This document shows positions 137 through 19,473 of a stretch of DNA of 20,000 nt, in pieces. Source of the DNA: an uncultured virus (IMG/VR IMGVR_UViG_3300030202_002850) (lineage: Duplodnaviria; Heunggongvirae; Uroviricota; Caudoviricetes); IMG/VR virus record IMGVR_UViG_3300030202_002850, positions 51,221-71,220 of that record. One strand, given 5' to 3'. The translations under genes were made by a program, and so were the position numbers. The stretch's first letter is position 1. Every line of letters starts with the position of its first letter. The notes beneath the pieces were generated by a model. It worked only from the letters and a program-made list of their open reading frames with translations. It had not been told where the DNA came from and did no database searches.

Positions 137-1609
137 ATGCCGTTAGACGCTAGTGGCTACTGGTATCCATCAATAAGCCCTAAACAGTTAGAAATATTCA
201 ACTGCAACAAAAGATACCTACTTGTGAGTGGCCCTCGCTACTCCAGTAAGACTATAGGAGTATTACATAGATTGATGAGACACTGCTGGGAAACCAAAAG
301 TGGTCGAGTTGGAATCTTTTGCAAGACAATTAGAAACGCAAAGTCTGGAGTATGGAGTGACTTAATAGATATTATCATTCCAGAATGGGTAGAAAACCTT
401 GAGGGTTTTGAGCTTACAGTACCCCCCAAAGTAGACGGTGTTACTAAAATGCACTACATGAGGATATCAAACATCCACGGCAACGAAACAGAAATACAAC
501 TGCATTCACTAGACAACGACCATGATATCGAGGAAAAAATTAAAGGTACTCGGTTCTCTATGATATTCTTTTCAGAGCTTTCAAACTTTAAAGACAACTG
601 TGTGTTCACAATTAGTAAAGGACAGTTGCGATTGCCCGGATTAGATTACGGTAGACATCAGTGGATAGGGGATACAAACCCGGCAGAAGAGGGAACAAGT
701 TCATGGATATACAAATTATGGTATGACGAGCCAAATAAAGAAGACCACCCAGACCCTGAATACGCTAGTCAATTTGCAATCATAGAATCAATGATACATG
801 ACAATCCTTACCTCTCTGAATGGGATAAAAAAGATTTAATAGCAACATTTAGAGGAGACCCAGAAATGTACGACAGATATGTTTTGGGAAAGTGGACTGC
901 AAGTAGCACTGATTCTCACTTCGGGAAAGTGTTTAAACCAGATATCCATGTTATCGGGGATGTGGAAAGCCCAATAGAAGATGAATGGGAAGTTATTCTT
1001 CCATCAGATGGATGCACTGAACTTATAGGAGGCTGGGATTTAGGAGACAGGAATCATGCTTTTCATATTATGGAAAAGATAGAAACAGTCAACGGTGTAA
1101 GGTGGTCAGTTTTAGATGAGCTAGTAGTGCTACACGCAGACGTAAGTTTAGAAGACTTTGCGGGGGAGGCACTTGATAAGATAGAAAAGCTAGAAGAGTA
1201 TATTGGAAATCAAGTCAGATGGACTCATTGGTCAGACAACTCATCAATGATTAGGTACAGGGCATCTGCAAACACATACGACCATAGGGTTATAGCGGCT
1301 GCAAGTGACGGTAAGATAAACCTAATAGGAGCGCCTAAATTCAGTGGATCAGTAAGGCAGAGAGTAAAACTAATAAAAGATTTATTAATGCAAAATCGAT
1401 TACATGTTAGCGCTCACTGCCAACGAACAATCGACATGTTAAAGTTTTTAAGAAAAGGAAAGTCTGCTGGTCAGTACGTCACATCTGACGACAATAAGCA
1501 CAGCTTTGACTCTTTAAGTTACGCTTTGATTGGTGAAATGAGTTCCGACCTGATAATATCCAACGCTCCGACAAGCGGAAAAATTGGCTTAACTTCCCTC
1601 CCACTTTAA
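137..1609 (+). CDS. terL: Phage terminase large subunit
   Basis: 490 aa; Q motif (PKQ), Walker A-like LVSGPRYSSKT, Walker B-like MIFFSE, motif III DTNP, DNPYL, RYVLGKW, RNase H-like nuclease IGGWDLG and KHSFDSLSY. Confidence 0.92.
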   Translation: MPLDASGYWYPSISPKQLEIFNCNKRYLLVSGPRYSSKTIGVLHRLMRHCWETKSGRVGIFCKTIRNAKSGVWSDLIDIIIPEWVENLEGFELTVPPKVDGVTKMHYMRISNIHGNETEIQLHSLDNDHDIEEKIKGTRFSMIFFSELSNFKDNCVFTISKGQLRLPGLDYGRHQWIGDTNPAEEGTSSWIYKLWYDEPNKEDHPDPEYASQFAIIESMIHDNPYLSEWDKKDLIATFRGDPEMYDRYVLGKWTASSTDSHFGKVFKPDIHVIGDVESPIEDEWEVILPSDGCTELIGGWDLGDRNHAFHIMEKIETVNGVRWSVLDELVVLHADVSLEDFAGEALDKIEKLEEYIGNQVRWTHWSDNSSMIRYRASANTYDHRVIAAASDGKINLIGAPKFSGSVRQRVKLIKDLLMQNRLHVSAHCQRTIDMLKFLRKGKSAGQYVTSDDNKHSFDSLSYALIGEMSSDLIISNAPTSGKIGLTSLPL

Positions 1610-6403: not shown

Positions 6404-6624
6404 GGTTCTGTTGCGTGGCAGTTATAACACCGATCTACCACTTCTATTGTTTTGTGAAAATCATCTAACTCTAACATCGTTTTAAACTCATGCTGATAAT
6501 GGTGACACACAGCTATGTCTGATGATCTCTTAGCCTTACTAATTGCTCCCACATACATAGAATACAAGATACCTAACATGACTATTACTATTAGTAGCTC
6601 AAGTATTGTGTGGGAGTTTTCCAT
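6400..6624 (-). CDS. Prepilin/pseudopilin-like small protein with C-terminal CxxCH motif
   Basis: SHTILELLIVIVMLGILYSMYVGAISKAK...C resembles [28 protein letters not shown]...C; CYNCH near the C-terminus; TAATG coupling to the tail-fibre stop. Confidence 0.7.
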   Translation of the reverse strand: MENSHTILELLIVIVMLGILYSMYVGAISKAKRSSDIAVCHHYQHEFKTMLELDDFHKTIEVVDRCYNCHATEP

Positions 6625-9600
6625 TAGATCTGCCCCTCATACTCAACGTCATACCGTTCAACATCTGCACGTTCTCCGTAAATAGTGTAGTAGCAATCAA
6701 TGTCTGCTCCATTAGCCTCACCAATCTTCACCTCTACGTTAGATGCACTAATCACATACAACTGCTGAAATGATCCTTTAGGTGTTAGCTGGACAGTAAC
6801 CGTGCCGTCTCTAACCAACCCTGCCCAGTAATCTGGTAGATCAATCGTGTCACCTTGAACTTCCCCACGTTGATAAACCCCAATCTCTGGCCCTTCCAAA
6901 CTTGAGTGACGAAGTTTGTGACCAGTTTTAGTTGGGTGATTAATTTTAAATGATTTACTAATGCCACCAACGTCACCGTTTATATACATATTACCACTAG
7001 CAAAAATGGCGTAACTGCTATTAGGACTAGTACCAACTCCGAGTCTTGTAGTGATCTGGGCATCTCCCACAACGTGTAGGTTTTCATCACCGGGGGATGT
7101 CTTGTTAACAGTTAGTGAATGGTCGGAGCCATTGTAAAATAAACGTGGTGCTTGTTTGACTGTTGTGCTTGCTGTGTAAACCGCTATGTTTCCATTAGTT
7201 GTGCTAGTCGTAACTGAGCTTGATGAAACTGTACCACTGCCACTGCCGCTAGACGCACTATTCCAAAGGACAGACCCAGAAGATGATTTAAGTGCAATTG
7301 CGTCAGTGCCAATTTCTAAGTACTGGTTACTGCCTCCACTGAATGTGATTCTAGAGTTAAGGGTTAGGTTTCCACTAAGGGATAGATGCCCATCCTCATC
7401 CAAAGTCATGCGGTCATAACCAGTTCCACCTTTGGTTGTAGAAAAAATTAAATCAGCATCACCATCCCCCGCAAATTCGGTACGAATAGTTCCTTCAGCA
7501 GCAGCAGAACTACTGTTGATTTTCATTTGGATAGCACAGAAACGACCAGTGTTAATTGATCCACTGTCGCTATTACGCAGCACCAAAATAGAGTCAGACT
7601 GATCGTTTAAATTAAATGAAGTATCTGCACTTGGGAAAGCAACCTCCAAGCCCTCAGTGAACGGTGCAGATGTCCCAATTCCTACCTGACCTCCAGTAAA
7701 CCAAGAGGAACCATCAGTATGAATCTGAACCTTTTGTGTTCCTCCATCCTTGTAAGCACGGATTAAACAGTCGTTACCAGACTGACGAACATTGAACATC
7801 GCATCGCCAGCGGAATCTTTCATGTTCAGTACATTGGTTCCATCGCCAGTACTTTTAATTAAGAAAGCATCAGATGCATCTGCGGCAACATTAACGCCTA
7901 AGTTAGTTAAATGAGTTCTACCCTCAACCTTTAAGCCTAAATCTCCTGAGTCAGCATTTGTAATGTGCAGCGGATAATTCCCAGTGTTAGCCTCAATAGT
8001 ACACGCACCACTAGCACCTACAGCAAAACGAGTGTTACCGCTATCGCCCTTACACCTAAAAATATTTCCACTGCCTTGCTGAACATCAAGGGCTGTATTG
8101 GATGGTACGATTCCAATTCCAACGCCCCCTGAACTAATTTTTAATCTACCAATCGCACTAGTACCAAATGTCAGCAGTTCATTATCATGGTTGTACTCTA
8201 TGTACCCTCTATACTTCTGATTACCATTTACACCATCACCAAAATAAATTGAACCCGTATGAGAAGTCCCAGAGCGAATAGTCATTCCAGCGTGACCGCC
8301 AGTATGCCCTAGAACAAAATCGTCAGCAGTTGATTCTGCATAAGTGTCAGGAGGCAGGGCGTTTAAAAATAATCTTTTACTATTATCAACTGCTAAACAT
8401 TCAGTGTCATGTAAAAATACTGCAAACCCATCAACCTCATCTGATCCATCGTGAAGTGATTTTAATTCAAGCTCGTTTGACGTAGCTCCACCCCTACGCC
8501 CAACTCTCAAGAATGTTGACCAAGAAATTCCTCCGTCTGTTGGGTCTAAAATATCAAGGACAGTAGCTCGGTTCGTACTAGGGTTTCTGTTAAAAGATAA
8601 TTTACCGTGTAATGTGGAATGCCCGTCCTTGTCCCAGTATTGAACCGCAGTTGTTCCCGTCCCTTCTGTACCAGCATCACCCAAAGTTGGAACCCGTGTG
8701 TTGTTATCTCCTCTCAGTAGTGCGAAGTAACCTTTTCCAGCAGAAATTTTGTAAGCATTTGTAAACGCCCACATTCTTTCATTGCCCGTCCAACTTGCTC
8801 CAGTATTCCAAACCAAAAATCCTTGACTGCTTAACCTAGCTCCTGATCCTCCTGAGTCGTATTGAACCGAATAACCACGGAGAGTGTGAGTCATTGGATC
8901 GCTAAACGAAGTGCCGGGTCTACCAATTTTAACCCCACCAACCTCCATGCGAAGCACACCAGAAGTTCCTAAAACATCAGCTTGAATATAACCACCGCCA
9001 TGTGTGCCAATGATCCTTGTGTTAGCGTTGTTCCAGTATAAACCATAACCATTGTCCAACTGTATATTACCATTCCCGACTGTGAATTTTTCAGCGATCT
9101 GGCTTGGGCTTTTTCCTAACCCTGTTTTACCAGCACCCGTTACGATTAATGCAGATGCGTCACCTCCAGTGTTAACCCTTAGTCCCATCGCAGACGTTCC
9201 AGAAGAAGCTATTTGAACATTAAGTCCGTTGTCCTCCGACTGAGTTCCGCTATTGTATAAATATGCAAGAAAAGCACTGTTCCCTAAATCACCAGTTACA
9301 TGGAGGAGGCTTGTGGGCGATACAGTTCCTACCCCTAGCGACCCCGTAATTGTAGCTCCAGCGGAAGTCGTCTCAAACTTCTTTGACCCATCGTAAAAAA
9401 GCTCAACTGCACCGTTATTGCCAGTACCATCCTTTTTAAAAATAGCAGAGAACTTTTGTCCACCCTTGTATGAGAAATTTAAATTACCAGCATTAGTGCC
9501 TTGCTGCATATATGTGTTAGACCCGTCATGGAATATTTGAAGATCGTCACCACTGCCCCAAACAGATTTAACATTATCGTTGGCACGGGTGAGTTCCATG

Positions 9601-12600
9601 CTCTCATCCCACTCCCAGAATTTTCCGTTATCTGCCCAAAACCTTACATCATGCCCACTACCGTTTGCTCCAACTGTTAACGGTTTGTAGACATTAAAGG
9701 ATGACGAGTTAAACTCTACTACGCTAGTTGACCCAGCGTTAAGCCTACGCATCCCAGAATCGTCTACATATAACCTAAATGAGTTAGTGCCGTTGACAAC
9801 AGCAATACCATCCGTGTTGGTTCCCGCTGGTTGGGCCACACCAAAATGTCCGTAACCTGAGAGGTCTGTTGAATTAACTGAAACGTGTTGGGATTCGTTA
9901 ATCCGCATCGCCTCAACTAGATTAGGCCCACCAGATGCGTTAGATGTCCAAAACCCTATAGATCCAGTGTGAGTTGCTCCCGGCTCAAGCACTTGGATTC
10001 TTGCAGTAGCATTTGAGTTTCCAGTTGCATTGCGAGTAAAATCAATATTGCGAACATGACCTGACGAATTATCAATTTGTAATTTAGTTAAGTCGGTTGC
10101 TCCATCAACAAACAAATATCCGTAGACCTCAGTATTGCTTGCGATAGAAGTCGTAGATGACGATATGGTCATTCTAGTTGTCCCAGCACGTTGGATTAAA
10201 AAATTGTGGCTAGAATTTGTTCCAACGACAGCATCACCGCCTGCACGGTTAGCAGTTAGGCGAGCTATGACTGTCCCACTTTTTACTATGTTCTGAAATA
10301 AAGGAGCGTTATTTGCGGTGCTACCAGTTGTTAAGTCACCAGTAGGTATTTCAACATTTCCTCCCGGCAGAATTGTAAGACGATCTACTAAAGTATCATC
10401 TGCCGTTCCCGGTGTTGCGAAAGCTATTTTAGCGGGAGCAGAAACAGTGTTCGCCGCTCCATGACGAGTAACAGTTATAGCCGCTGAATTTCTGTAGCTA
10501 GAACCAGAAGGAGCGTATGCTACATAAGAAGTTGTACCGATAATGTCTCCATCACTTGTTCCTGTCGGGCTTGCTTCTGTTCCAGTTGATCGTTGGAAGA
10601 ATTGCCTCACCGCCCCCGAACTGTGTCCAGAGCCACTGTAATGCAACATCAGGTGATTCCCGTCTGCTGCTGAAATATGTAATGATTTAGCTGGGGCTGA
10701 ATTTCCTATGCTGCAATTTCCATTGTTCCTCACGAAGAATCCCGTCCCTGCTCCAGTGTAGGTTGCAAGTGCATAAACAGTCGTTCCCGAATTAGCAGAA
10801 CAATCAATGCTTAGACCGTAACCATTTGTGTGTGTATTTTTAATACGAGCAGCCCAATCAGCTTCATTCTCTAAAACATCAAGGCGTACAGCGGGTACGC
10901 AGTTAATTCCAAAATCCCCACTTGTATCTAGGATCATTTTTACGGAATTGTTATTTAGGAAATATAAGTTCTGATTATTCGCAGCATTTAAATAAGTTGA
11001 CCCAGCAGAACTTTGAATTAATGCGTAGTTCCCCGTTCCACCAGCATCAATGTGAGAAAATCCAGCGTAATCACTATGTCCGATGTATCCAACTTTAGCT
11101 CGGCCTAAAACATGGTAACTGTCGGTGTCGTTTAAGGCTTCTAACCTACCGCTTTCATGTATGCTGAGTTTGCCAGCAGATGTACCAATGTCTAAATAGT
11201 CATTCGGATCGGAACCTGACCGTCCAGAAATTGTCCACGTTTCATTACCCGTGGCGGTCATGGTTATAAAATTATTGTTGTCTGCTCGCTCAGTAATAAA
11301 TCCACCATCAGCAGTTACCGACCCAGAAAAATCTCCAGCCGTTCCATAAATTAACCAACGCTTGTTACTCAGACCCAAACCGTAACCGGGGTCATTAGGA
11401 TAGAGTGCCGAACTAGAAATTATCGCTCGTTTAGTTCCAGAAGCACTTCCCGATACACCGCCAGCAGTGTGTTCACTGGTAGCAGCAGTCCTAAACTGCA
11501 TAGCACCAGACTCGTTCATTATGGAAACGCCTTGGCCGCTGGTTCCAGTTTCTAAAAATAATCTAGGACTTAGGTTATCATTTTCGCCACCCTTAATAAC
11601 CACCCCATCAGCACCATCTGTGCCTTGCAGAACTATTCGGTTTGAAAACTCATTAACGTCACCCAACTTTGCCAACTGTTCATAGCAAGAGATTTTGTCT
11701 AAGTTGAAACTACTACCGCTGTCACTTGCCCAAAATGCTAGGCTAGTGTCGGTAACAACAATTTCTACAGTATATGTTCCGGGGTTGTGATCGGTATAAC
11801 CTGAGTAAACATAGCCAGAACTTCCAGCCATGTTGCCAATCCATATTTTAGCAACCCCCGAACCCCCTACAGTAAAAGTAAGTTTGAATGTTTTGCCCTT
11901 GTCAGCAGCAGTGAATATAGATTGCTGAGTTAGTTGGTTGCTTCCAGAAGTTGTATTGAATGTTGCAACACCTGACCCTAGCACCCAACCTGATCCTAAT
12001 GTCCAATTGCTTGTGCTGCTAAAATCGCCATTAGAGATTCTGTTAGTTGTGCTGTAAGTTTTAACAACACCTCGCACGGAAGGAATATTTACACCCAATG
12101 AACTGATACGCATCCTTTCCGTCAACGCACTCATCGCACCTTTTCCAGTAGAAAAAATTAATTCTCCGTGGTAAGGGTCTGCTCCTGTTAGGCAAGTGAT
12201 TGAAGCCCGATGATAAGAGTTACCAAAAGAGGCAAATGTAATTGCTGAAGAATCTGTCGTTCCACCAGCGGTATTATCCAACATTAATACTGGGCCTAAA
12301 CCATTTGAATTTGACTTAGCTAAATGAAGGAGTTGTGACGGGGCAGTTGTACCTAACGCTGCGAAGCCACTACTAAGAATATTAAAATTATTTGCCGAAG
12401 CCTGTGCTGCTGCACCAAAACCTAAAACACTATTCTCAGCGACGATATATGCACTTGTGTCGTTGTCTGCGACTCTAAGTTTAGCCCTGTTGGTTCTAGA
12501 TTTTACCGTTAGCCCAACTTCAGCCCCACCTTCAGAATTAAACGTGACTAATTTTGTTTCGCCATTAACAGAGTTGCCAACTTGAAGGTTGTTAGAAAGA

Positions 12601-14432
12601 ACAATATCTGTTGCATCAAAACTAATTTTCTCTGTTCCACCATACTGGAATATCGCCCTGCCAGATCCCGGTGGAATAATGTTAATACGAGCATTAGCGT
12701 TAGTTCCTGTTGGTGTAATTGTTAACTGTGCCGCTGCATCAGTGGAGGTAATGGAAAGATGTCCAGCAGACGATATGGCTAACCTCTCAGTTAAGCTACT
12801 GCCAGAACCAGAAGGTGAAGTGTAAAATTTTAAATCACCATCATCCCCACTAGAATGAGAGCGGATCATCGCAATGCTGTTACTGTTATTTGCAAACAGA
12901 ACCTGACCAGCATCACTACCTCCTGTCCTTTTACCTTCTAATTTTAAAACAGCAGCGTCACCCGTTTTATCATTGTGAATATGCAGTTGAGTGTTTCCAG
13001 AGGTTGCTGAGTTATGTAAATGTAAGAGGCTTGTCGGGGATACTGTTCCCAGCCCTAAATTGCCACCCGTAAACCAACTGTTTCCATTACTGGATAAACC
13101 AACCTTACTTGAATTATTTTTGTCTAAAACATACGCAGCACCATCGCCATCTGCGTCTTGGTAAACTCCAAATATTTTGTCGCTGTCAAGTGAACTAATA
13201 ACTGCAAACGGGTACGAGGAATTGCCCCCACTTTTAATTGTTGTTGCACCAGCAGACGATATAGTTAGCCTCTCTGCATCGTCGGTGAACATCCGAATTG
13301 ACCCTGCCTTTTTATGCAGAATGTCTAGATGACCAGCATCGCCAGTGACACCAATCATGCTTATGGTTGAGCCACTATCTTTCAACTCAATGTAACCAGT
13401 AGCATTCGTTCCCCATGTTCCTCCATCTTGGATCGTTAGCACTGGAGCAGATGAATATAAATGTAGGAGACTTGATGCTGAAGTAGTTCCAAGGCCAGTG
13501 TTGCCTCCATCTAAAACTACTAAGGCAGAAGCGTTGTTTCCAACGATGGTGCTTGAACCTGATCTATAAATTATGTTCGCAGAATTAGCTGCATTGTTTA
13601 GTGTGTCTGCATTAACTATTCCCGTGACTTTGATTCCAGTAGTTAATGTTTCCAGCTTGAGACTGTTGTTGTGGTACAGCTTAACTGGCCCATCTGGTTC
13701 AAACGTGGCTAGTTTTTCTGAAGACCCGTATTTGTAAAATCCATTGTCAGCAGTTCCCGCAACTTCAATTTTTAATCCACCAGTGCCTTGGTCTTGGATC
13801 AGCGAATTAGAACCGTCATGTTTAATAATTAAATCGCCGCCAGTTCCAATAGAAATTCTATCATCATCAGCTAACTCTAAATCGCCTGAGAGTGTTAACG
13901 TGTCATCAACAGTTACGGCTCCGTTAAAATATGACGTTCCGTTATTGTAAAAATCAAAACTGTTATTAACCGAACCTACATTGAGTTTTCCAAAAAGATG
14001 CCCTGTTCCTGTTGCGGTTATTGCTCCTCCAAAAGTACAACTGCCATCGCTATTTAAAGCAAACTGGTGCAGAGAACTTATATCATTGTAGAAGCTCAAT
14101 TTCGTATCAGCTTCATATTGAAACACCCGCCACTTATCTGTGCCTCCTCTTTGGAAAGCAATTGAAGTGAGTGATCCTCCAGAGCTAATAGTAGGGTTAA
14201 GCCTTAATATCTTATTAGTGGAAGTAGATATTGTTAACGCACCACTAAGTGTGCCGCCAGCTAAAGGGAGATAACTTGTGGATACAGATGGGTTGAGATG
14301 GATTACTCCATTGGCAGCGGCGTTGCCAACATATAACTTACTGTCTGAAAGATTAACCGCTAACTCGCCAGCCGCTAACCCGCTAGGTACGCCAGCAGAT
14401 GTACGCCGTTTAATCTGAAGTGTGTTGGCCAT
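6624..14432 (-). CDS. Giant tail fibre / receptor-binding protein (2602 aa)
   Basis: N-terminal IKRR...LAAGELAVNLSDSKLYVG fibre anchor; many GxxGxGTxSP..LLH / ERLTISS fibre repeats; G/S/T/N-rich; C-terminal SKSFKINHP..LRHSSLEGPE..VYQRG domain typical of aquatic phage fibres. Confidence 0.88.
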   Translation of the reverse strand: MANTLQIKRRTSAGVPSGLAAGELAVNLSDSKLYVGNAAANGVIHLNPSVSTSYLPLAGGTLSGALTISTSTNKILRLNPTISSGGSLTSIAFQRGGTDKWRVFQYEADTKLSFYNDISSLHQFALNSDGSCTFGGAITATGTGHLFGKLNVGSVNNSFDFYNNGTSYFNGAVTVDDTLTLSGDLELADDDRISIGTGGDLIIKHDGSNSLIQDQGTGGLKIEVAGTADNGFYKYGSSEKLATFEPDGPVKLYHNNSLKLETLTTGIKVTGIVNADTLNNAANSANIIYRSGSSTIVGNNASALVVLDGGNTGLGTTSASSLLHLYSSAPVLTIQDGGTWGTNATGYIELKDSGSTISMIGVTGDAGHLDILHKKAGSIRMFTDDAERLTISSAGATTIKSGGNSSYPFAVISSLDSDKIFGVYQDADGDGAAYVLDKNNSSKVGLSSNGNSWFTGGNLGLGTVSPTSLLHLHNSATSGNTQLHIHNDKTGDAAVLKLEGKRTGGSDAGQVLFANNSNSIAMIRSHSSGDDGDLKFYTSPSGSGSSLTERLAISSAGHLSITSTDAAAQLTITPTGTNANARINIIPPGSGRAIFQYGGTEKISFDATDIVLSNNLQVGNSVNGETKLVTFNSEGGAEVGLTVKSRTNRAKLRVADNDTSAYIVAENSVLGFGAAAQASANNFNILSSGFAALGTTAPSQLLHLAKSNSNGLGPVLMLDNTAGGTTDSSAITFASFGNSYHRASITCLTGADPYHGELIFSTGKGAMSALTERMRISSLGVNIPSVRGVVKTYSTTNRISNGDFSSTSNWTLGSGWVLGSGVATFNTTSGSNQLTQQSIFTAADKGKTFKLTFTVGGSGVAKIWIGNMAGSSGYVYSGYTDHNPGTYTVEIVVTDTSLAFWASDSGSSFNLDKISCYEQLAKLGDVNEFSNRIVLQGTDGADGVVIKGGENDNLSPRLFLETGTSGQGVSIMNESGAMQFRTAATSEHTAGGVSGSASGTKRAIISSSALYPNDPGYGLGLSNKRWLIYGTAGDFSGSVTADGGFITERADNNNFITMTATGNETWTISGRSGSDPNDYLDIGTSAGKLSIHESGRLEALNDTDSYHVLGRAKVGYIGHSDYAGFSHIDAGGTGNYALIQSSAGSTYLNAANNQNLYFLNNNSVKMILDTSGDFGINCVPAVRLDVLENEADWAARIKNTHTNGYGLSIDCSANSGTTVYALATYTGAGTGFFVRNNGNCSIGNSAPAKSLHISAADGNHLMLHYSGSGHSSGAVRQFFQRSTGTEASPTGTSDGDIIGTTSYVAYAPSGSSYRNSAAITVTRHGAANTVSAPAKIAFATPGTADDTLVDRLTILPGGNVEIPTGDLTTGSTANNAPLFQNIVKSGTVIARLTANRAGGDAVVGTNSSHNFLIQRAGTTRMTISSSTTSIASNTEVYGYLFVDGATDLTKLQIDNSSGHVRNIDFTRNATGNSNATARIQVLEPGATHTGSIGFWTSNASGGPNLVEAMRINESQHVSVNSTDLSGYGHFGVAQPAGTNTDGIAVVNGTNSFRLYVDDSGMRRLNAGSTSVVEFNSSSFNVYKPLTVGANGSGHDVRFWADNGKFWEWDESMELTRANDNVKSVWGSGDDLQIFHDGSNTYMQQGTNAGNLNFSYKGGQKFSAIFKKDGTGNNGAVELFYDGSKKFETTSAGATITGSLGVGTVSPTSLLHVTGDLGNSAFLAYLYNSGTQSEDNGLNVQIASSGTSAMGLRVNTGGDASALIVTGAGKTGLGKSPSQIAEKFTVGNGNIQLDNGYGLYWNNANTRIIGTHGGGYIQADVLGTSGVLRMEVGGVKIGRPGTSFSDPMTHTLRGYSVQYDSGGSGARLSSQGFLVWNTGASWTGNERMWAFTNAYKISAGKGYFALLRGDNNTRVPTLGDAGTEGTGTTAVQYWDKDGHSTLHGKLSFNRNPSTNRATVLDILDPTDGGISWSTFLRVGRRGGATSNELELKSLHDGSDEVDGFAVFLHDTECLAVDNSKRLFLNALPPDTYAESTADDFVLGHTGGHAGMTIRSGTSHTGSIYFGDGVNGNQKYRGYIEYNHDNELLTFGTSAIGRLKISSGGVGIGIVPSNTALDVQQGSGNIFRCKGDSGNTRFAVGASGACTIEANTGNYPLHITNADSGDLGLKVEGRTHLTNLGVNVAADASDAFLIKSTGDGTNVLNMKDSAGDAMFNVRQSGNDCLIRAYKDGGTQKVQIHTDGSSWFTGGQVGIGTSAPFTEGLEVAFPSADTSFNLNDQSDSILVLRNSDSGSINTGRFCAIQMKINSSSAAAEGTIRTEFAGDGDADLIFSTTKGGTGYDRMTLDEDGHLSLSGNLTLNSRITFSGGSNQYLEIGTDAIALKSSSGSVLWNSASSGSGSGTVSSSSVTTSTTNGNIAVYTASTTVKQAPRLFYNGSDHSLTVNKTSPGDENLHVVGDAQITTRLGVGTSPNSSYAIFASGNMYINGDVGGISKSFKINHPTKTGHKLRHSSLEGPEIGVYQRGEVQGDTIDLPDYWAGLVRDGTVTVQLTPKGSFQQLYVISASNVEVKIGEANGADIDCYYTIYGERADVERYDVEYEGQI

Positions 14433-17955: not shown

Positions 17956-18285
17956 ATGTCTCACTATGTTATACATCGTGAACCCGGAGATGGAGGATTG
18001 TATTTCTGCGAAACATGTGGAGATCTTTATTTCTCTCCTCTGCCAGATGTGCCGACAATTTGTTTAGATTGTCTGTACTCTAACAGAAACAGGAATAGAT
18101 TAATTAAGGTTTATGGGCCTAGTTATAAAGACAGCTTAGAAGAAAACACCATGCTTACCCAATCTGAGGTTGGGAACATCATGGGAATAAGCAGACAACG
18201 GGTTCAGCAAATTGAGATAATCGCTATGGCTAAGGTTAGAGCCTATCTAATCAAATCAAACGAAACTAAAATAAAACTAAGCATA
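17956..18285 (+). CDS. Zn-finger plus sigma70 region-4-like HTH, reading in frame into ssb
   Basis: CETC-x14-CLDC; MLTQSEVGNIMGISRQRVQQIEIIAMAKVR matches the sigma r4.2 pattern TL.EIG...G.SRERVRQIE..AL.KLR; start may be TTG at 17998. Confidence 0.7.
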
Positions 18286-18621
18286 ATGAATCAAGTTGCA
18301 ATAGTAGGTAAAGTAGTAAGAGATGCACAAGTAAGAGAAACCAAAAATGGTAATCCAATGCTTACTGTGACAATCGTAACAGAAAAAGTAGGAACAGAAG
18401 ATAGAACTTTCCAGACTTATTGGGATGTTCTGTCATTCGGTGATAAAGCAATTTCACTTGCTGATAAGTTGAAAGAAGGGGCTGCTGCCTTTGCTACTGG
18501 CGAAGTTTCTGTTTCAACATACGAGAATAAAGATGGTGCAACAAAAGCATCTCTTAAATGCGTAGGAACAGTAGGTGTAATTGGTGGCATCCCAAAAGAT
18601 GACACTGATCAAATGTTTTAG
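18286..18621 (+). CDS. ssb: Single-stranded DNA-binding protein
   Basis: MNQVAIVGKVVRDAQVRETKNG...YWDVLSFGDKA...LKEG...GEV...YENKDG OB-fold pattern; short acidic tail DDTDQMF. Confidence 0.88.
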   Translation: MNQVAIVGKVVRDAQVRETKNGNPMLTVTIVTEKVGTEDRTFQTYWDVLSFGDKAISLADKLKEGAAAFATGEVSVSTYENKDGATKASLKCVGTVGVIGGIPKDDTDQMF

Positions 18622-18802
18622 TCAAACATGGTGTCTAGGGAGATCCTAGAACAATGAGGGGGTGATGTGACCCCCTTGTCTGAAACAATAAACTAAAACT
18701 AAGCAAGCAAAAGAGCATGGTGTTTGGGGAGATCCCAAAACAAGGACAATACACTCACCCGTTATCGCCTCATAGAAACACTCTTTTGTTTGCTATTTTT
18801 TT
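18615..18802 (+). ncRNA. Tandem pair of unclassified structured RNA elements (CATGGTG-stem-GAGAT-stem-ACAA ... GAAACA)
   Basis: 28-nt cores at 18627-18654 and 18716-18743 differ only by two compensatory base-pair swaps; closing stems 18615-18622/18692-18699 and 18702-18715/18781-18794; T7 run follows. Confidence 0.6.
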
Positions 18803-18804
18803 AA

Positions 18805-18999
18805 ATGAATAAAAAAGATAAGTCGCCTAGCGAAAACTTAAACCCCGGAAGCTTAGAAGCTGTAGGTAAAGGTTGTCTTTGTCCTGAAATAGACAATAGA
18901 CACGGAAGGGGCTGGCCCGGTGAAAACGGAAAACCAGTGTTTTATCTAAGTGATCAATGCCCAATGCATAAAACAAAAACAAAATCAGATAAAGAATAG
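18805..18999 (+). CDS. Small Cys/His phage protein, putative Zn-binding
   Basis: NPGSLEAVGKGCLCPEIDNRHGRG...CPMH pattern (CxC...CxxH). Confidence 0.75.
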   Translation: MNKKDKSPSENLNPGSLEAVGKGCLCPEIDNRHGRGWPGENGKPVFYLSDQCPMHKTKTKSDKE

Positions 19000-19473
19000 A
19001 TGGACTTCCTTAATAATAGATTAAATAACCCAAAACAAAAAAACCCCGCACCGATGAACAATGTTCAATTAACTTCTCTTCAAGCAGAGCAAATGATTAA
19101 CAGCTTAATTGAATCTAAAAGCGTAATACCAAAGAAAAAACTAGCCGAGTTATGCTATAGCGGTATGGAGTTAAAAACCCATATGGGCTTAGAGAGGCTA
19201 CTTGTAGCTATGGATGCTTGTGAGCTTTTCGATAAAAAACAATCTGATTATGGAAGTAGAAACATAGACAGTTGGGGTGAGAAAAATATGAACACACTTG
19301 GCATTGCTGTAAGGATTAATGATAAGATTCAACGCCTAGCCAACTTAACAAAGAAACAAATAGCCAACAAAGGTGAACCAGAAGTAAAGGACGAAAGCTT
19401 ATCAGATACTGCAATAGACATAACAAATTACGGGGCGATATTAATGCTAATATTGGAGAACCGCTGGACTTAA
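19000..19473 (+). CDS. DUF1599 / nucleotide-modification-associated domain 1-like protein
   Basis: LFDKKQSDYG...GIAVRINDKIQRL...DESLSDTAIDITNYGAI, MazG-like helical family signature. Confidence 0.75.
   Translation: MDFLNNRLNNPKQKNPAPMNNVQLTSLQAEQMINSLIESKSVIPKKKLAELCYSGMELKTHMGLERLLVAMDACELFDKKQSDYGSRNIDSWGEKNMNTLGIAVRINDKIQRLANLTKKQIANKGEPEVKDESLSDTAIDITNYGAILMLILENRWT

What the first reader, a model, noticed from the sequence alone, without database searches (positions are those of the whole stretch)
18615..18802. Tandem, covarying structured RNA motif directly after ssb
Seen: CATGGTGTCTAGGGAGATCCTAGAACAA (18627-18654) and CATGGTGTTTGGGGAGATCCCAAAACAA (18716-18743). All four differences fall in a 6-bp stem and are pairwise compensatory (C-G to T-A, A-T to G-C). 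CATGGTG, the GAGAT pentaloop and ACAA are invariant. Each copy continues with a variable insert (a 7-bp AGGGGGT/ACCCCCT hairpin in copy 1), then a shared GAAACA. Each is enclosed by its own unrelated closing stem: 8 bp in copy 1, covering the ssb stop codon, and 14 bp with one G-U in copy 2, which favours + strand RNA. A T7 run follows. Inference: a multi-stem ncRNA under structural selection, such as a protein-binding or antitermination site (boxB-like pentaloop), riboswitch, ribozyme or processed small RNA. I cannot match it to a family I know.
Basis: partly seen in the sequence, partly recalled or inferred. Interest (0 to 1): 0.85.

Follow-up and report, generated by a model that had tools for sequence, protein, structure and literature searches.

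The report
New widespread structured RNA, tandem pair
Right after the ssb gene of this marine virus sit two copies of a small folded RNA that also occurs in over a hundred other viruses and in some ammonia-oxidising archaea, matches no catalogued RNA family, and has an unknown job.

Summary
Both copies are exactly where stated, and their stem differences are compensatory.

This is not a local duplication. Pattern scans plus a covariance model gave 110 distinct members in IMG/VR, metagenomes and genomes, with GC 31-70%. On 102 of them, 91.6% of P1/P2 cells pair, against 35-45% when partners are slid. G-U outnumbers A-C 126 to 37, which points to a + strand transcript.

No Rfam 15 family matches, even at E<=10 over 21 copies.

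The core is: P1 | NAUGGUG | 6-bp P2 with GAGAU loop | ACAA | variable region | (YAU)GAAACA | P1.

Context is not tied to ssb:
- It sits between varied phage genes.
- It sits in tRNA arrays with tRNA-like spacing.
- It is tandem in three lineages.
- It lies 230 nt from a pistol ribozyme.
- It reaches 15-16 copies per genome in one Nitrosopumilales genus, each behind a TATA-like box.

I read it as a new autonomous RNA class. My leading guess for its action is self-cleavage (about 0.3), which is untested. The rivals are a stable trans-acting RNA, a sensor/attenuator, or an end-protecting terminator.

The parts
17956..18621 (+). Upstream ORF of 221 aa: a sigma-70 region-4-like HTH (residues 65-95) followed by an SSB OB-fold (residues 111-201). 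Stop codon TAG at 18619-18621.
18615..18699 (+). Copy 1 of the motif, whole unit from the first to the last base of P1.
   Evidence: (64.4 bits with model R1)
18615..18622 (+). Copy 1, P1 5' strand GTTTTAGT. It contains the ssb stop codon and pairs with 18692-18699 (ACTAAAAC).
   Evidence: extends to 10 bp in L308-310
18627..18633 (+). Copy 1, junction CATGGTG.
   Evidence: AUGGU invariant in 102 of 102 aligned members (partly forced by the search patterns)
18634..18650 (+). Copy 1, P2 hairpin: TCTAGG / CCTAGA with loop GAGAT (18640-44).
   Evidence: 98.5% of cells paired; all 6 pairs show changes on both sides
18651..18654 (+). Copy 1, junction ACAA. RNAalifold pairs the AC with the GU of GGUG, leaving a bulged G.
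18657..18676 (+). Copy 1, variable-region hairpin AGGGGGT / ACCCCCT (P3).
   Evidence: -15.2 kcal/mol; covaries to GGAGG/CCTCC in L308-310
18682..18687 (+). Copy 1, junction GAAACA.
   Evidence: 109 of 110 members GAAACA, 1 GAAATA
18692..18699 (+). Copy 1, P1 3' strand ACTAAAAC.
18702..18794 (+). Copy 2 of the motif, whole unit.
   Evidence: (71.7 bits)
18702..18715 (+). Copy 2, P1 5' strand AGCAAGCAAAAGAG. It pairs with 18781-18794 (14 bp, one G-U).
   Evidence: compensatory changes in L307 and L308-310
18716..18743 (+). Copy 2 core: CATGGTG, P2 TTTGGG/CCCAAA with loop GAGAT (18729-33), ACAA.
18744..18774 (+). Copy 2, variable region of 31 nt with no convincing hairpin.
   Evidence: -0.9 kcal/mol
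18775..18780 (+). Copy 2, junction GAAACA.
18781..18794 (+). Copy 2, P1 3' strand CTCTTTTGTTTGCT.
18796..18802 (+). T7 run directly after copy 2's P1. Together they look like an intrinsic terminator. The run is kept as T5-T6 in all 5 relatives.
18805..18999 (+). Next ORF (64 aa, no family match). Its ATG starts 2 nt after the T run.

Best explanation
The two elements are tandem copies of a widespread structured RNA class that is not yet catalogued.

Architecture. Each copy is a self-contained module on the + strand transcript. A closing stem P1 of free sequence (4-17 bp) encloses a near-invariant core: NAUGGUG, a 6-bp P2 capped by GAGAU, ACAA, a variable stretch of 8-44 nt that forms a hairpin in some members, then (YAU)GAAACA.

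What this implies. The core is kept letter for letter across viruses with GC 31-70% and in Thaumarchaeota chromosomes. So it must act through its own fold, or on something universal. It is not a regulator specific to ssb.

Mechanism I commit to. It is a small self-cleaving (self-processing) RNA that punctuates transcripts. Here it would separate the ssb message from the downstream genes. In tRNA arrays it would help free its neighbours.

Shown: the family, the two covarying stems, the strand, and the range of contexts.
Inferred: that it is transcribed as part of the ssb operon, and that it is released as a discrete RNA.
Guess: catalysis. No cleavage site is known.
For: Family and structure:
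- Of 37 IMG/VR matches to the exact core, 17 have P2 6/6 paired and the other 20 have 0-4 paired, a bimodal split.
- 110 distinct members were pooled.
- On 102 of them aligned to model R1, 91.6% of cells pair against 34.9-44.7% with slid partners. The covariation score is 1.017 against 0.13-0.18. 0 of 500 shuffles reached the observed value. All 16 pairs show changes on both sides.
- G-U 126 vs A-C 37.

Not a known family.

Self-contained module found in many contexts:
- Neighbouring genes are diverse, including SSB, terminase then portal, RecA with an intein, D5 primase and NinB.
- 14 of 110 members have a tRNA within 400 nt, all on the same strand. Gaps from upstream tRNA end to P1 are 0, -1, 2, 1, 1, 10, 0, 3. 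Gaps from P1 end to downstream tRNA are 4, 2, 4, 3, 4, 10, 3, 4, 3. That is the spacing of another unit in the array.
- Tandem pairs occur in three unrelated lineages: the window virus plus 5 of 5 relatives, G003, and archaeal G007.

Ribozyme-like niche:
- A true pistol ribozyme (70.4 bits) lies 230 nt upstream on the same strand in L114.
- Distribution is sporadic with lineage bursts. One Nitrosopumilales genus has it in 3 of 3 genomes (15, 1 and 16 copies), but only 1 of 121 genomes sampled from the class has it.
- HDV-like theta ribozymes of phages are likewise found within 5 nt of tRNAs (PMC10879173, passages read).

Conserved unpaired nucleotides: about 20 positions in junctions, a bulge and a loop.
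Against: - No cleavage was observed or can be observed with these tools.
- A contig from an RNA library (run X20) runs through copy 1 unbroken, 18541-18699. So at least some molecules are uncut there, or the contig comes from DNA in that library.
- The core is more conserved than in most small ribozymes. Part of that invariance was forced by my search patterns.
- In Thaumarchaeota a TATA-like box about 24 nt before P1 suggests transcription starts at P1. That leaves nothing upstream to cut off.
- As I recall, most orphan motifs found next to ribozymes did not self-cleave when tested.
- Only 1 pistol neighbour was seen among about 60 loci scanned with Rfam.
Confidence: 0.3

Rival explanations
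1. A stable small RNA that acts in trans. It would be cut out by the enzymes that process its neighbours (RNase P and RNase Z in tRNA arrays) or be made from its own promoter. Its invariant core would bind a universal partner such as the ribosome, a translation factor or a metabolite, or it would act as a decoy. Tandem copies would simply raise the dose.
For: - tRNA-like spacing inside tRNA arrays.
- A long P1 closes both ends, median 9 bp and up to 17 bp.
- Archaeal copies have a TATA-like box at about -41 to -36 from CATGGTG, and they lie after the upstream gene's own hairpin plus T-run.
- An RNA-library contig covers copy 1 whole.
- GOLLD and ROOL are precedents: phage RNAs of unknown function, often near tRNA islands (PMC12286853, passages read).
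Against: - The partner would have to be shared by bacteria and archaea, and none is identified.
- No conserved protein gene accompanies the motif.
- 15-16 copies per archaeal genome with differing P1 and variable regions is odd for a single trans-acting RNA.
Confidence: 0.25
2. A ligand- or ion-sensing aptamer that controls read-through. Binding would lock P1. In copy 2, P1 together with the T7 run would then terminate transcription before the downstream genes. Two aptamers in tandem would sharpen the response.
For: - P1 followed by a T-rich stretch is enriched: 28 of 110 members have at least 5 T in 7 just after P1, against 11 of 110 at +40 nt and 6 of 110 before P1.
- The next ATG often follows within about 10-15 nt. 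In the window it starts 2 nt after the T run.
- Archaeal copies start transcripts 160-480 nt upstream of genes, often PQQ beta-propeller genes (9 of 15 loci).
- Conservation is at the level seen in aptamers.
Against: - Downstream genes share no function in phages.
- 12-13 members sit between or beside tRNAs.
- By my crude ORF calls, L111, L113 and L129 have only convergent genes downstream.
- P1 is long and stable, with no recurrent alternative pairing seen.
- 82 of 110 members lack the T-rich tail.
Confidence: 0.17
3. A passive end structure. It would be an elaborate terminator or exonuclease block that stabilises the upstream message (here ssb), or a site cut by a host RNase. The core would be kept for folding only.
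For: - The motif begins 6-25 nt after the upstream stop codon in 11 of 24 IMG/VR loci.
- T-rich tails are enriched.
- In the window lineage, P1 of copy 2 plus the T run is conserved.
Against: - A simple hairpin would do this job. About 20 invariant unpaired nucleotides across two domains of life are not explained.
- tRNA-array and promoter-proximal archaeal copies do not fit a 3'-end role.
- No single RNase is shared with that specificity.
Confidence: 0.12
4. A DNA-level element, such as a single-strand hairpin for replication, nicking or transposition, or a REP-like repeat.
For: - It lies next to replication genes in some loci: SSB, D5 primase, RecA, NinB.
- It is multicopy and dispersed in two archaeal lineages.
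Against: - Strand asymmetry of wobble pairs, G-U 126 vs A-C 37.
- Co-orientation with the upstream gene in 18 of 24 loci, and with every adjacent tRNA.
- One or two copies per phage genome.
- No HUH or transposase gene nearby.
Confidence: 0.03

Closest known systems
Small self-cleaving ribozymes found in phages and metagenomes by genomic association (pistol, hatchet, twister-sister, twister, hammerhead)
   Same: Size of 60-110 nt. Free-sequence stems around a few conserved junction nucleotides. Enriched in phages. Sits in intergenic spots of any kind. Occurs in tandem. Sporadic distribution with lineage bursts. One member lies 230 nt from a real pistol.
   Different: None of their Rfam models matches at E<=10 in 21 copies. 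The core letters and the architecture (two obligatory stems plus an optional third) are different. Cleavage is untested.
HDV-like theta ribozymes of gut phages (PMC10879173; passages read)
   Same: Sit within a few nucleotides of phage tRNA genes. There is an invariant C in the last junction before the 3'-terminal strand.
   Different: Theta and HDV-like ribozymes are nested double pseudoknots in which the 5'-most strand pairs internally (recalled). Here the 5'-most strand pairs with the 3'-most strand, with covariation in all 10 pairs. Also, this motif flanks tRNAs on either side.
GOLLD and ROOL RNAs (PMC12286853; passages read)
   Same: Phage and prophage RNAs of unknown function, often near tRNA islands, with no known protein partner.
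   Different: Those are 500-800+ nt ornate RNAs that form cages and are in Rfam. This motif is 60-110 nt with two obligatory stems, and it also occurs in archaeal chromosomes.
Intrinsic (Rho-independent) terminator
   Same: In copy 2 a 14-bp stem is followed directly by T7. 28 of 110 members have a T-rich tail.
   Different: The 'loop' of that stem is an 80-nt conserved structured core. Most members have no T tract. The simple terminator scan does not call it.
Unnamed candidate structured RNAs from IMG/VR (Fremin et al. 2023, PMC10690425; passages read)
   Same: Same source collection and same kind of object: covarying intergenic RNAs of about 65 nt, some of them tRNA-associated. This motif may be among the 8,495 candidates.
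   Different: I could not check. The two large supplementary files were too big to be searched, and the 6 files that were searched hold no sequences matching the core. The main text describes nothing like it.

Membership tests
Any Rfam 15 family (4227 models) | Covariance-model score at or above the gathering score, or a recurrent sub-threshold match on the motif | tested here: not met
   0 matches at gathering score in the window. At E<=10 on 18550-18850 there was nothing on the motif. At E<=10 over 20 other members no family falls on the motif.
Pistol / hatchet / twister / twister-sister ribozymes | Match to the class consensus (Rfam models) | tested here: not met
   No match. As a positive control, the pistol model finds a real pistol at 70.4 bits in L114/L066, beside the motif rather than on it.
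Hammerhead ribozyme | Three obligatory helices around the two conserved core strands and a cleavage triplet (core recalled, not typed) | tested here: not met
   The junction strands are NAUGGUG, ACAA and GAAACA. The third helix is optional: inserts go down to 8 nt, and only 53 of 110 fold at <=-3 kcal/mol. No Rfam match.
HDV-like / theta ribozyme | Nested double pseudoknot in which the 5'-most strand (P1) pairs with an internal strand, with cleavage at its 5' end | tested here: not met
   The 5'-most strand pairs with the 3'-most strand. 10 of 10 pairs show changes on both sides and 87.4% of cells pair.
HDV-like / theta ribozyme | tRNA within +/-5 nt of the ribozyme (PMC10879173) | tested here: inconclusive
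   True for part of the family only. 14 of 110 members have a tRNA within 400 nt, most at 0-4 nt, on either side.
Riboswitch | Lies in the 5' leader of functionally coherent genes | tested here: not met
   Phage neighbours are diverse. Some members sit in tRNA arrays. Some have only convergent genes downstream. Archaeal copies do often precede PQQ-propeller genes, in 9 of 15 loci.
Riboswitch | Expression platform that competes with P1 | tested here: inconclusive
   P1 plus a T tract occurs in 28 of 110 members. P1 is long (median 9 bp, up to 17), and I found no recurrent alternative pairing.
Riboswitch | Binds a small ligand | not testable with these tools
   Needs in-line probing or binding assays.
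boxB / nut-type antitermination hairpin | Short hairpin with a GNRA-like pentaloop that works with a phage N-type protein and bacterial Nus factors | tested here: not met
   GAGAU could be GNRA-like. But the same core is in Thaumarchaeota chromosomes behind TATA-like boxes and in tRNA arrays. The loop is only one of four conserved parts.
Intrinsic terminator | Stem followed at once by a U tract | tested here: met
   Copy 2: a 14-bp P1 plus T7, kept in 5 of 5 relatives. It is not a family-wide feature: 28 of 110.
STAXI motif (ssb-associated tandem pseudoknots; recalled) | Match to the Rfam STAXI model | tested here: not met
   No match.
Type III toxin-antitoxin RNA repeats (ToxI-like) | Near-identical short tandem repeats upstream of an endoribonuclease toxin gene | tested here: not met
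   The copies share only the core and have unrelated P1 stems. The downstream ORFs match no toxin family. Contexts elsewhere are diverse.

The most novel reading that the evidence does not exclude
This is a new class of natural catalytic RNA, a small self-cleaving ribozyme. It would be shared by tailed viruses of many bacterial phyla and by Nitrosopumilales archaea, and used to punctuate operons and tRNA arrays. It would be the first such class with a burst of promoter-driven copies in an archaeal chromosome.
Probability: 0.27. Interest if true: 0.92.

Novelty: categorically new. Interest (0 to 1): 0.8.

Why it matters
- **Size of the gap in the catalogues.** A 60-110 nt RNA with about 20 invariant unpaired nucleotides, two fully covarying stems and over 100 distinct members in soil, freshwater and marine data is absent from Rfam 15.
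- **What the cross-domain conservation implies.** Conservation across bacterial viruses and archaeal chromosomes means the core acts by itself or on something universal. That is the signature of ribozymes and of aptamers for central metabolites, and few new classes of either are found now.
- **Relevance to phage tRNA islands.** The motif adds a small, tractable member to the unexplained set of phage RNAs that live in tRNA islands (GOLLD, ROOL, theta ribozymes). It could clarify how phages process or protect their tRNA arrays and operon transcripts.
- **Ease of testing.** The motif is short enough for direct tests: self-cleavage, in-line probing, crystallography or cryo-EM.

Tried and rejected
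**Searches that found nothing**
- Rfam at the gathering score and at E<=10 found nothing on the motif.
- Five full-text literature searches found no description. They covered core letters; phage motif terms; new ribozyme classes; Thaumarchaeota plus ribozyme; and RAGATH/pistol. A 2026 preprint on new ribozyme classes has 0 mentions of phage or tRNA (term search only).
- In the Fremin et al. supplements, 6 files searched gave 0 occurrences; two large files and one further file were not searched.
- Earlier notes of this scan hold nothing relevant.

**Structural ideas**
- Kissing between the GAGAU loop and the variable region: I looked by eye at about 15 members and found no consistent complement.
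- A CCA tail after P1: 10 of 110 members, not enriched.
- A fourth short helix, CAUG with (C)AUG: 84% of cells are compatible, but one side is invariant, so it is unproven.
- P3 as an obligatory stem: rejected.

**Mapping onto known folds**
- Mapping onto the HDV-like, hammerhead or hairpin-ribozyme folds from memory failed on topology.

**Reads**
- The X20 RNA-library contig stops at 18699, which is the last base of copy 1's P1. No RNA contig covers copy 2 or 18700-19050.
- Contigs cannot show RNA ends or absence, only one run is involved, and DNA may be present in the library. I draw nothing from either point.

**Host of the window virus**
- No AmoC (the control also rang nowhere).
- No DNA similarity to the four motif-rich archaeal genomes.
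- No cultured phage shares the region.

**Other**
- The simple terminator scan does not call copy 2.
I used the search for related loci instead.
Full report
**1. Observation**

- Copy 1 core lies at 18627-18654 and copy 2 core at 18716-18743.
- They differ at four positions, which form two compensatory pairs in a 6-bp stem.
- CATGGTG, the GAGAT loop, ACAA and a later GAAACA are shared.
- The 16-base pattern occurs twice in the 20-kb window, against 0.02 expected. 0 of 200 shuffles gave 2 or more.
- It occurs only twice in the whole 71,220-bp virus record, both on the + strand.
- The 201-nt region folds better than shuffles on the + strand (z = -4.56) and a little less well on the - strand (z = -3.90).
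- The upstream ORF ends with an SSB OB-fold, and its TAG stop is at 18619-21.

**2. It is a family, not a local duplication**

*IMG/VR, exact core.* The scan gave 37 loci. In 17 the two N6 blocks pair 6/6. In the other 20 they pair 0-4 of 6, which is the chance background.

In the 17, a free-sequence stem directly encloses the core, and GAAACA (once GAAATA) follows 8-44 nt after ACAA. Neither feature was asked for by the pattern.

*Further scans.*
- Dropping the first three letters while requiring GAAACA showed C, U, A or G at the first position.
- The genome collection gave 9 true members out of 26 matches.
It gave 75 distinct true members and 28 chance matches.
- Pooled, I hold 110 distinct members with GC 31-70%.

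*Covariation.*
- A MAFFT alignment of 22 members gave P2 99.2% paired, with all 6 pairs changed on both sides. P1 also had all 10 pairs changed on both sides. 0 of 500 shuffles reached the observed score.
- With covariance model R1, 102 copies were aligned.
- In that alignment 91.6% of cells pair, against 34.9-44.7% when the 3' partners are slid. The covariation score is 1.017 against 0.13-0.18.

*Caveats.*
- Members were picked by patterns that fix the core, and by P2 pairing of at least 5/6. P1 of at least 4 bp was also required for the pooled set. So core invariance and P2 pairing are partly by construction.
- The P1 covariation, the bimodal split and the model-found archaeal copies are not by construction.
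- The A5 alignment is fitted to the model.

**3. Strand and molecule**

- G-U and U-G cells number 126. A-C and C-A cells number 37.
- The motif is co-oriented with the nearest upstream ORF in 18 of 24 true IMG/VR loci, by crude ORF calls that include 2 duplicates.
- It is co-oriented with every adjacent tRNA.

This fits a + strand transcript rather than duplex DNA.

An assembly from an RNA library (run X20) holds a 159-nt contig covering 18541-18699. It bridges copy 1 whole. That library may contain DNA, so this is only a hint of expression.

**4. Anatomy**

*Consensus.*
- P1 is 4-17 bp, median 9. Its last pair is mostly G-C.
- N-A-U-G-G-U-G follows. N is C in 85, U in 14, A in 8 and G in 3 of 110.
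- P2 is 6 bp.
- The loop is GAGAU. Model-found or related copies show GAGAC, GAGAA and GGAAU.
- ACAA follows. AC is invariant; the AA varies in archaeal copies.
- A variable stretch of 8-44 nt comes next.
- A semi-conserved YAU precedes GAAACA: C 66, A 73 and U 86 of 102.
- GAAACA is followed by the P1 3' strand.

*A subclass.* 21 of 110 members have one extra base 5' of the core and two extra A bases 3' of it.

*The variable stretch.* It is a strong hairpin in copy 1 (-15.2 kcal/mol) but not in copy 2 (-0.9). Only 53 of 110 fold at -3 kcal/mol or better, and 2 are under 12 nt. So "P3" is optional.

*Possible extra pairs.*
- RNAalifold on the unfitted alignment adds G-C and U-A pairs between GGUG and ACAA, with a bulged G. 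Both are invariant, so this cannot be tested.
- CAUG could pair with (C)AUG-G in 84% of cells. One side never varies, so this is unproven too.

*Copy 1 closing stem.* Family comparison and the relatives L306-310 support GTTTTAGT/ACTAAAAC as its closing stem. They do not support the minimum-energy pairing that uses up GAAACA.

**5. The window lineage**

Five IMG/VR relatives have the same 221-aa ORF at 83-100% identity. All keep both copies in tandem, the T run, and an ATG right after it.

Compensatory changes appear in:
- P2 of copy 1 (TCTAGG/CCTAGA to TCGCAG/CTGCGG),
- P3 of copy 1,
- P2 of copy 2,
- the long P1 of copy 2.

**6. Context elsewhere**

*Neighbouring genes.* They include SSB, terminase followed by portal, a RecA with an intein, a D5-type primase, NinB and a DnaA-like HTH. 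In 11 of 24 loci the core starts 6-25 nt after the upstream stop codon.

*T-rich tails.* At least 5 T in 7 follow P1 in 28 of 110 members. The figures are 11 of 110 forty bases further on, and 6 of 110 before P1.

*tRNAs.*
- ARAGORN finds a tRNA within 400 nt in 14 of 110 members, always on the same strand.
- Gaps from upstream tRNA end to P1 are 0, -1, 2, 1, 1, 10, 0, 3.
- Gaps from P1 end to downstream tRNA are 4, 2, 4, 3, 4, 10, 3, 4, 3.
- A tRNA-Arg(tct) / motif / tRNA-Asn(gtt) cassette recurs in five contigs.
- Rfam confirms tRNAs beside further members.

*Tandem pairs.* They recur in G003, a 193.8-kb virus, and in an archaeal genome.

*Pistol neighbour.* In L114 a pistol ribozyme (70.4 bits) lies just after a stop codon, 230 nt upstream of the motif on the same strand.

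**7. Archaea**

*Occurrence.*
- Four of the nine genome hits are in two Thaumarchaeota/Nitrosopumilales MAGs.
- Model R1 finds 15 and 8 copies in these genomes.
- In the genus of the first, 3 of 3 genomes have it: 15, 1 and 16 copies, some on contigs over 200 kb.
- Among 121 genomes sampled from the class, only that same genome has it (stricter filters applied).

*Neighbours.* They are cellular genes: SecY/L15, HemD, NAD kinase, MazE/PIN. In 9 of 15 loci they are tandem PQQ beta-propeller genes.

*Position and promoter.*
- The motif lies after the upstream gene's own hairpin plus T run.
- It is co-oriented with the upstream gene in 11 of 12 cases.
- An A/T-rich TATA-like box peaks at -41 to -36 from CATGGTG, about 24 nt before the extended P1.
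- I infer that the motif has its own promoter and sits at the 5' end of a transcript. The copies are paralogues, so this is not 16 independent observations.

**8. What it is not**

- No Rfam 15 family matches, while the pistol model works as a positive control.
- The topology excludes an HDV-like fold, because the 5'-most strand pairs with the 3'-most strand.
- The optional third helix and the junction letters exclude a hammerhead.
- A boxB-type site that depends on bacterial factors does not fit the archaeal copies.
- A riboswitch is hard to square with the tRNA arrays, the diverse or absent downstream genes, and the long P1.

**9. Most likely function**

The motif is an autonomous module whose invariant unpaired nucleotides are kept across two domains of life. 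So it works through its own fold, or on a universal partner.

Its niche is that of small self-cleaving ribozymes:
- it is enriched in phages,
- it sits in any intergenic slot,
- it occurs in tandem,
- it lies beside tRNAs, as theta ribozymes do (PMC10879173),
- it lies beside a pistol,
- it shows lineage bursts.

I therefore put self-cleavage first at about 0.3.

The remaining odds are:
- a stable trans-acting small RNA, 0.25,
- a sensor/attenuator, 0.17,
- a passive end structure, 0.12,
- a DNA-level element, 0.03,
- the rest for something not thought of.

Nothing here shows catalysis.

**10. Novelty**

- The family is absent from Rfam 15 and from the papers I could search.
- It may be among thousands of unnamed IMG/VR candidates (PMC10690425), whose large alignment files could not be searched.
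- As a family it is new. Its kind of function is open.

Noticed in passing
window 17956-18621 (+): A single 221-aa ORF joins a sigma-70 region-4-like HTH (residues 65-95) to an SSB OB-fold (111-201), with an in-frame ATG at 18286. All five relatives match over residues 1-221. It could be a real fusion or two genes read as one.
   Followed up: partly
window 137-1609 (+): The large terminase's nearest cultured relatives are haloarchaeal tailed viruses (27-29% identity), followed by a Gordonia phage. So the host of this marine virus may be archaeal. No AmoC was found, and there is no DNA similarity to the motif-rich Nitrosopumilales genomes.
   Followed up: partly
window 6624-14432 (-): A giant ORF of 2602 aa. 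Only its last 190 or so residues match PHROG families, and those have unknown function.
   Followed up: no
L114 2711-3075: A pistol ribozyme sits directly after a stop codon. About 220 nt of non-coding sequence follow, then the motif. The stretch between them could be an RNA excised at both ends.
   Followed up: no
L169, L174, L176, L181, L185 (Nitrosopumilales genome G006): Arrays of tandem PQQ beta-propeller genes. Each ends in a membrane anchor plus an RRKK-type tail, and each is followed by a GGCCTTGC...GCAAGGC hairpin with a T run. A short palindrome (TTCGTCAAT...ACGAA type) lies about 55-70 nt upstream of the motif.
   Followed up: no
L027, L202, L208, L213, L239: A conserved cassette of tRNA-Arg(tct), motif, tRNA-Asn(gtt) in five different contigs, with P1 of 11-17 bp.
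   Followed up: partly
L058 449-556: A 108-nt tRNA match (32.9 bits) about 70 nt downstream of a motif copy. It may carry an intron or a long extra arm.
   Followed up: no
window 18640-18645 and 18627-18630; family-wide: The core holds self-complementary stretches: CAUG twice per unit, and GAUC formed by the loop plus the closing C in 81 of 102 members. These could allow pairing between copies or between molecules.
   Followed up: no
family-wide P1: The 5' strand of P1 is rich in G and purines and the 3' strand is rich in pyrimidines (G-C 600 vs C-G 320 cells). The 6 nt after P1 are depleted in G.
   Followed up: no
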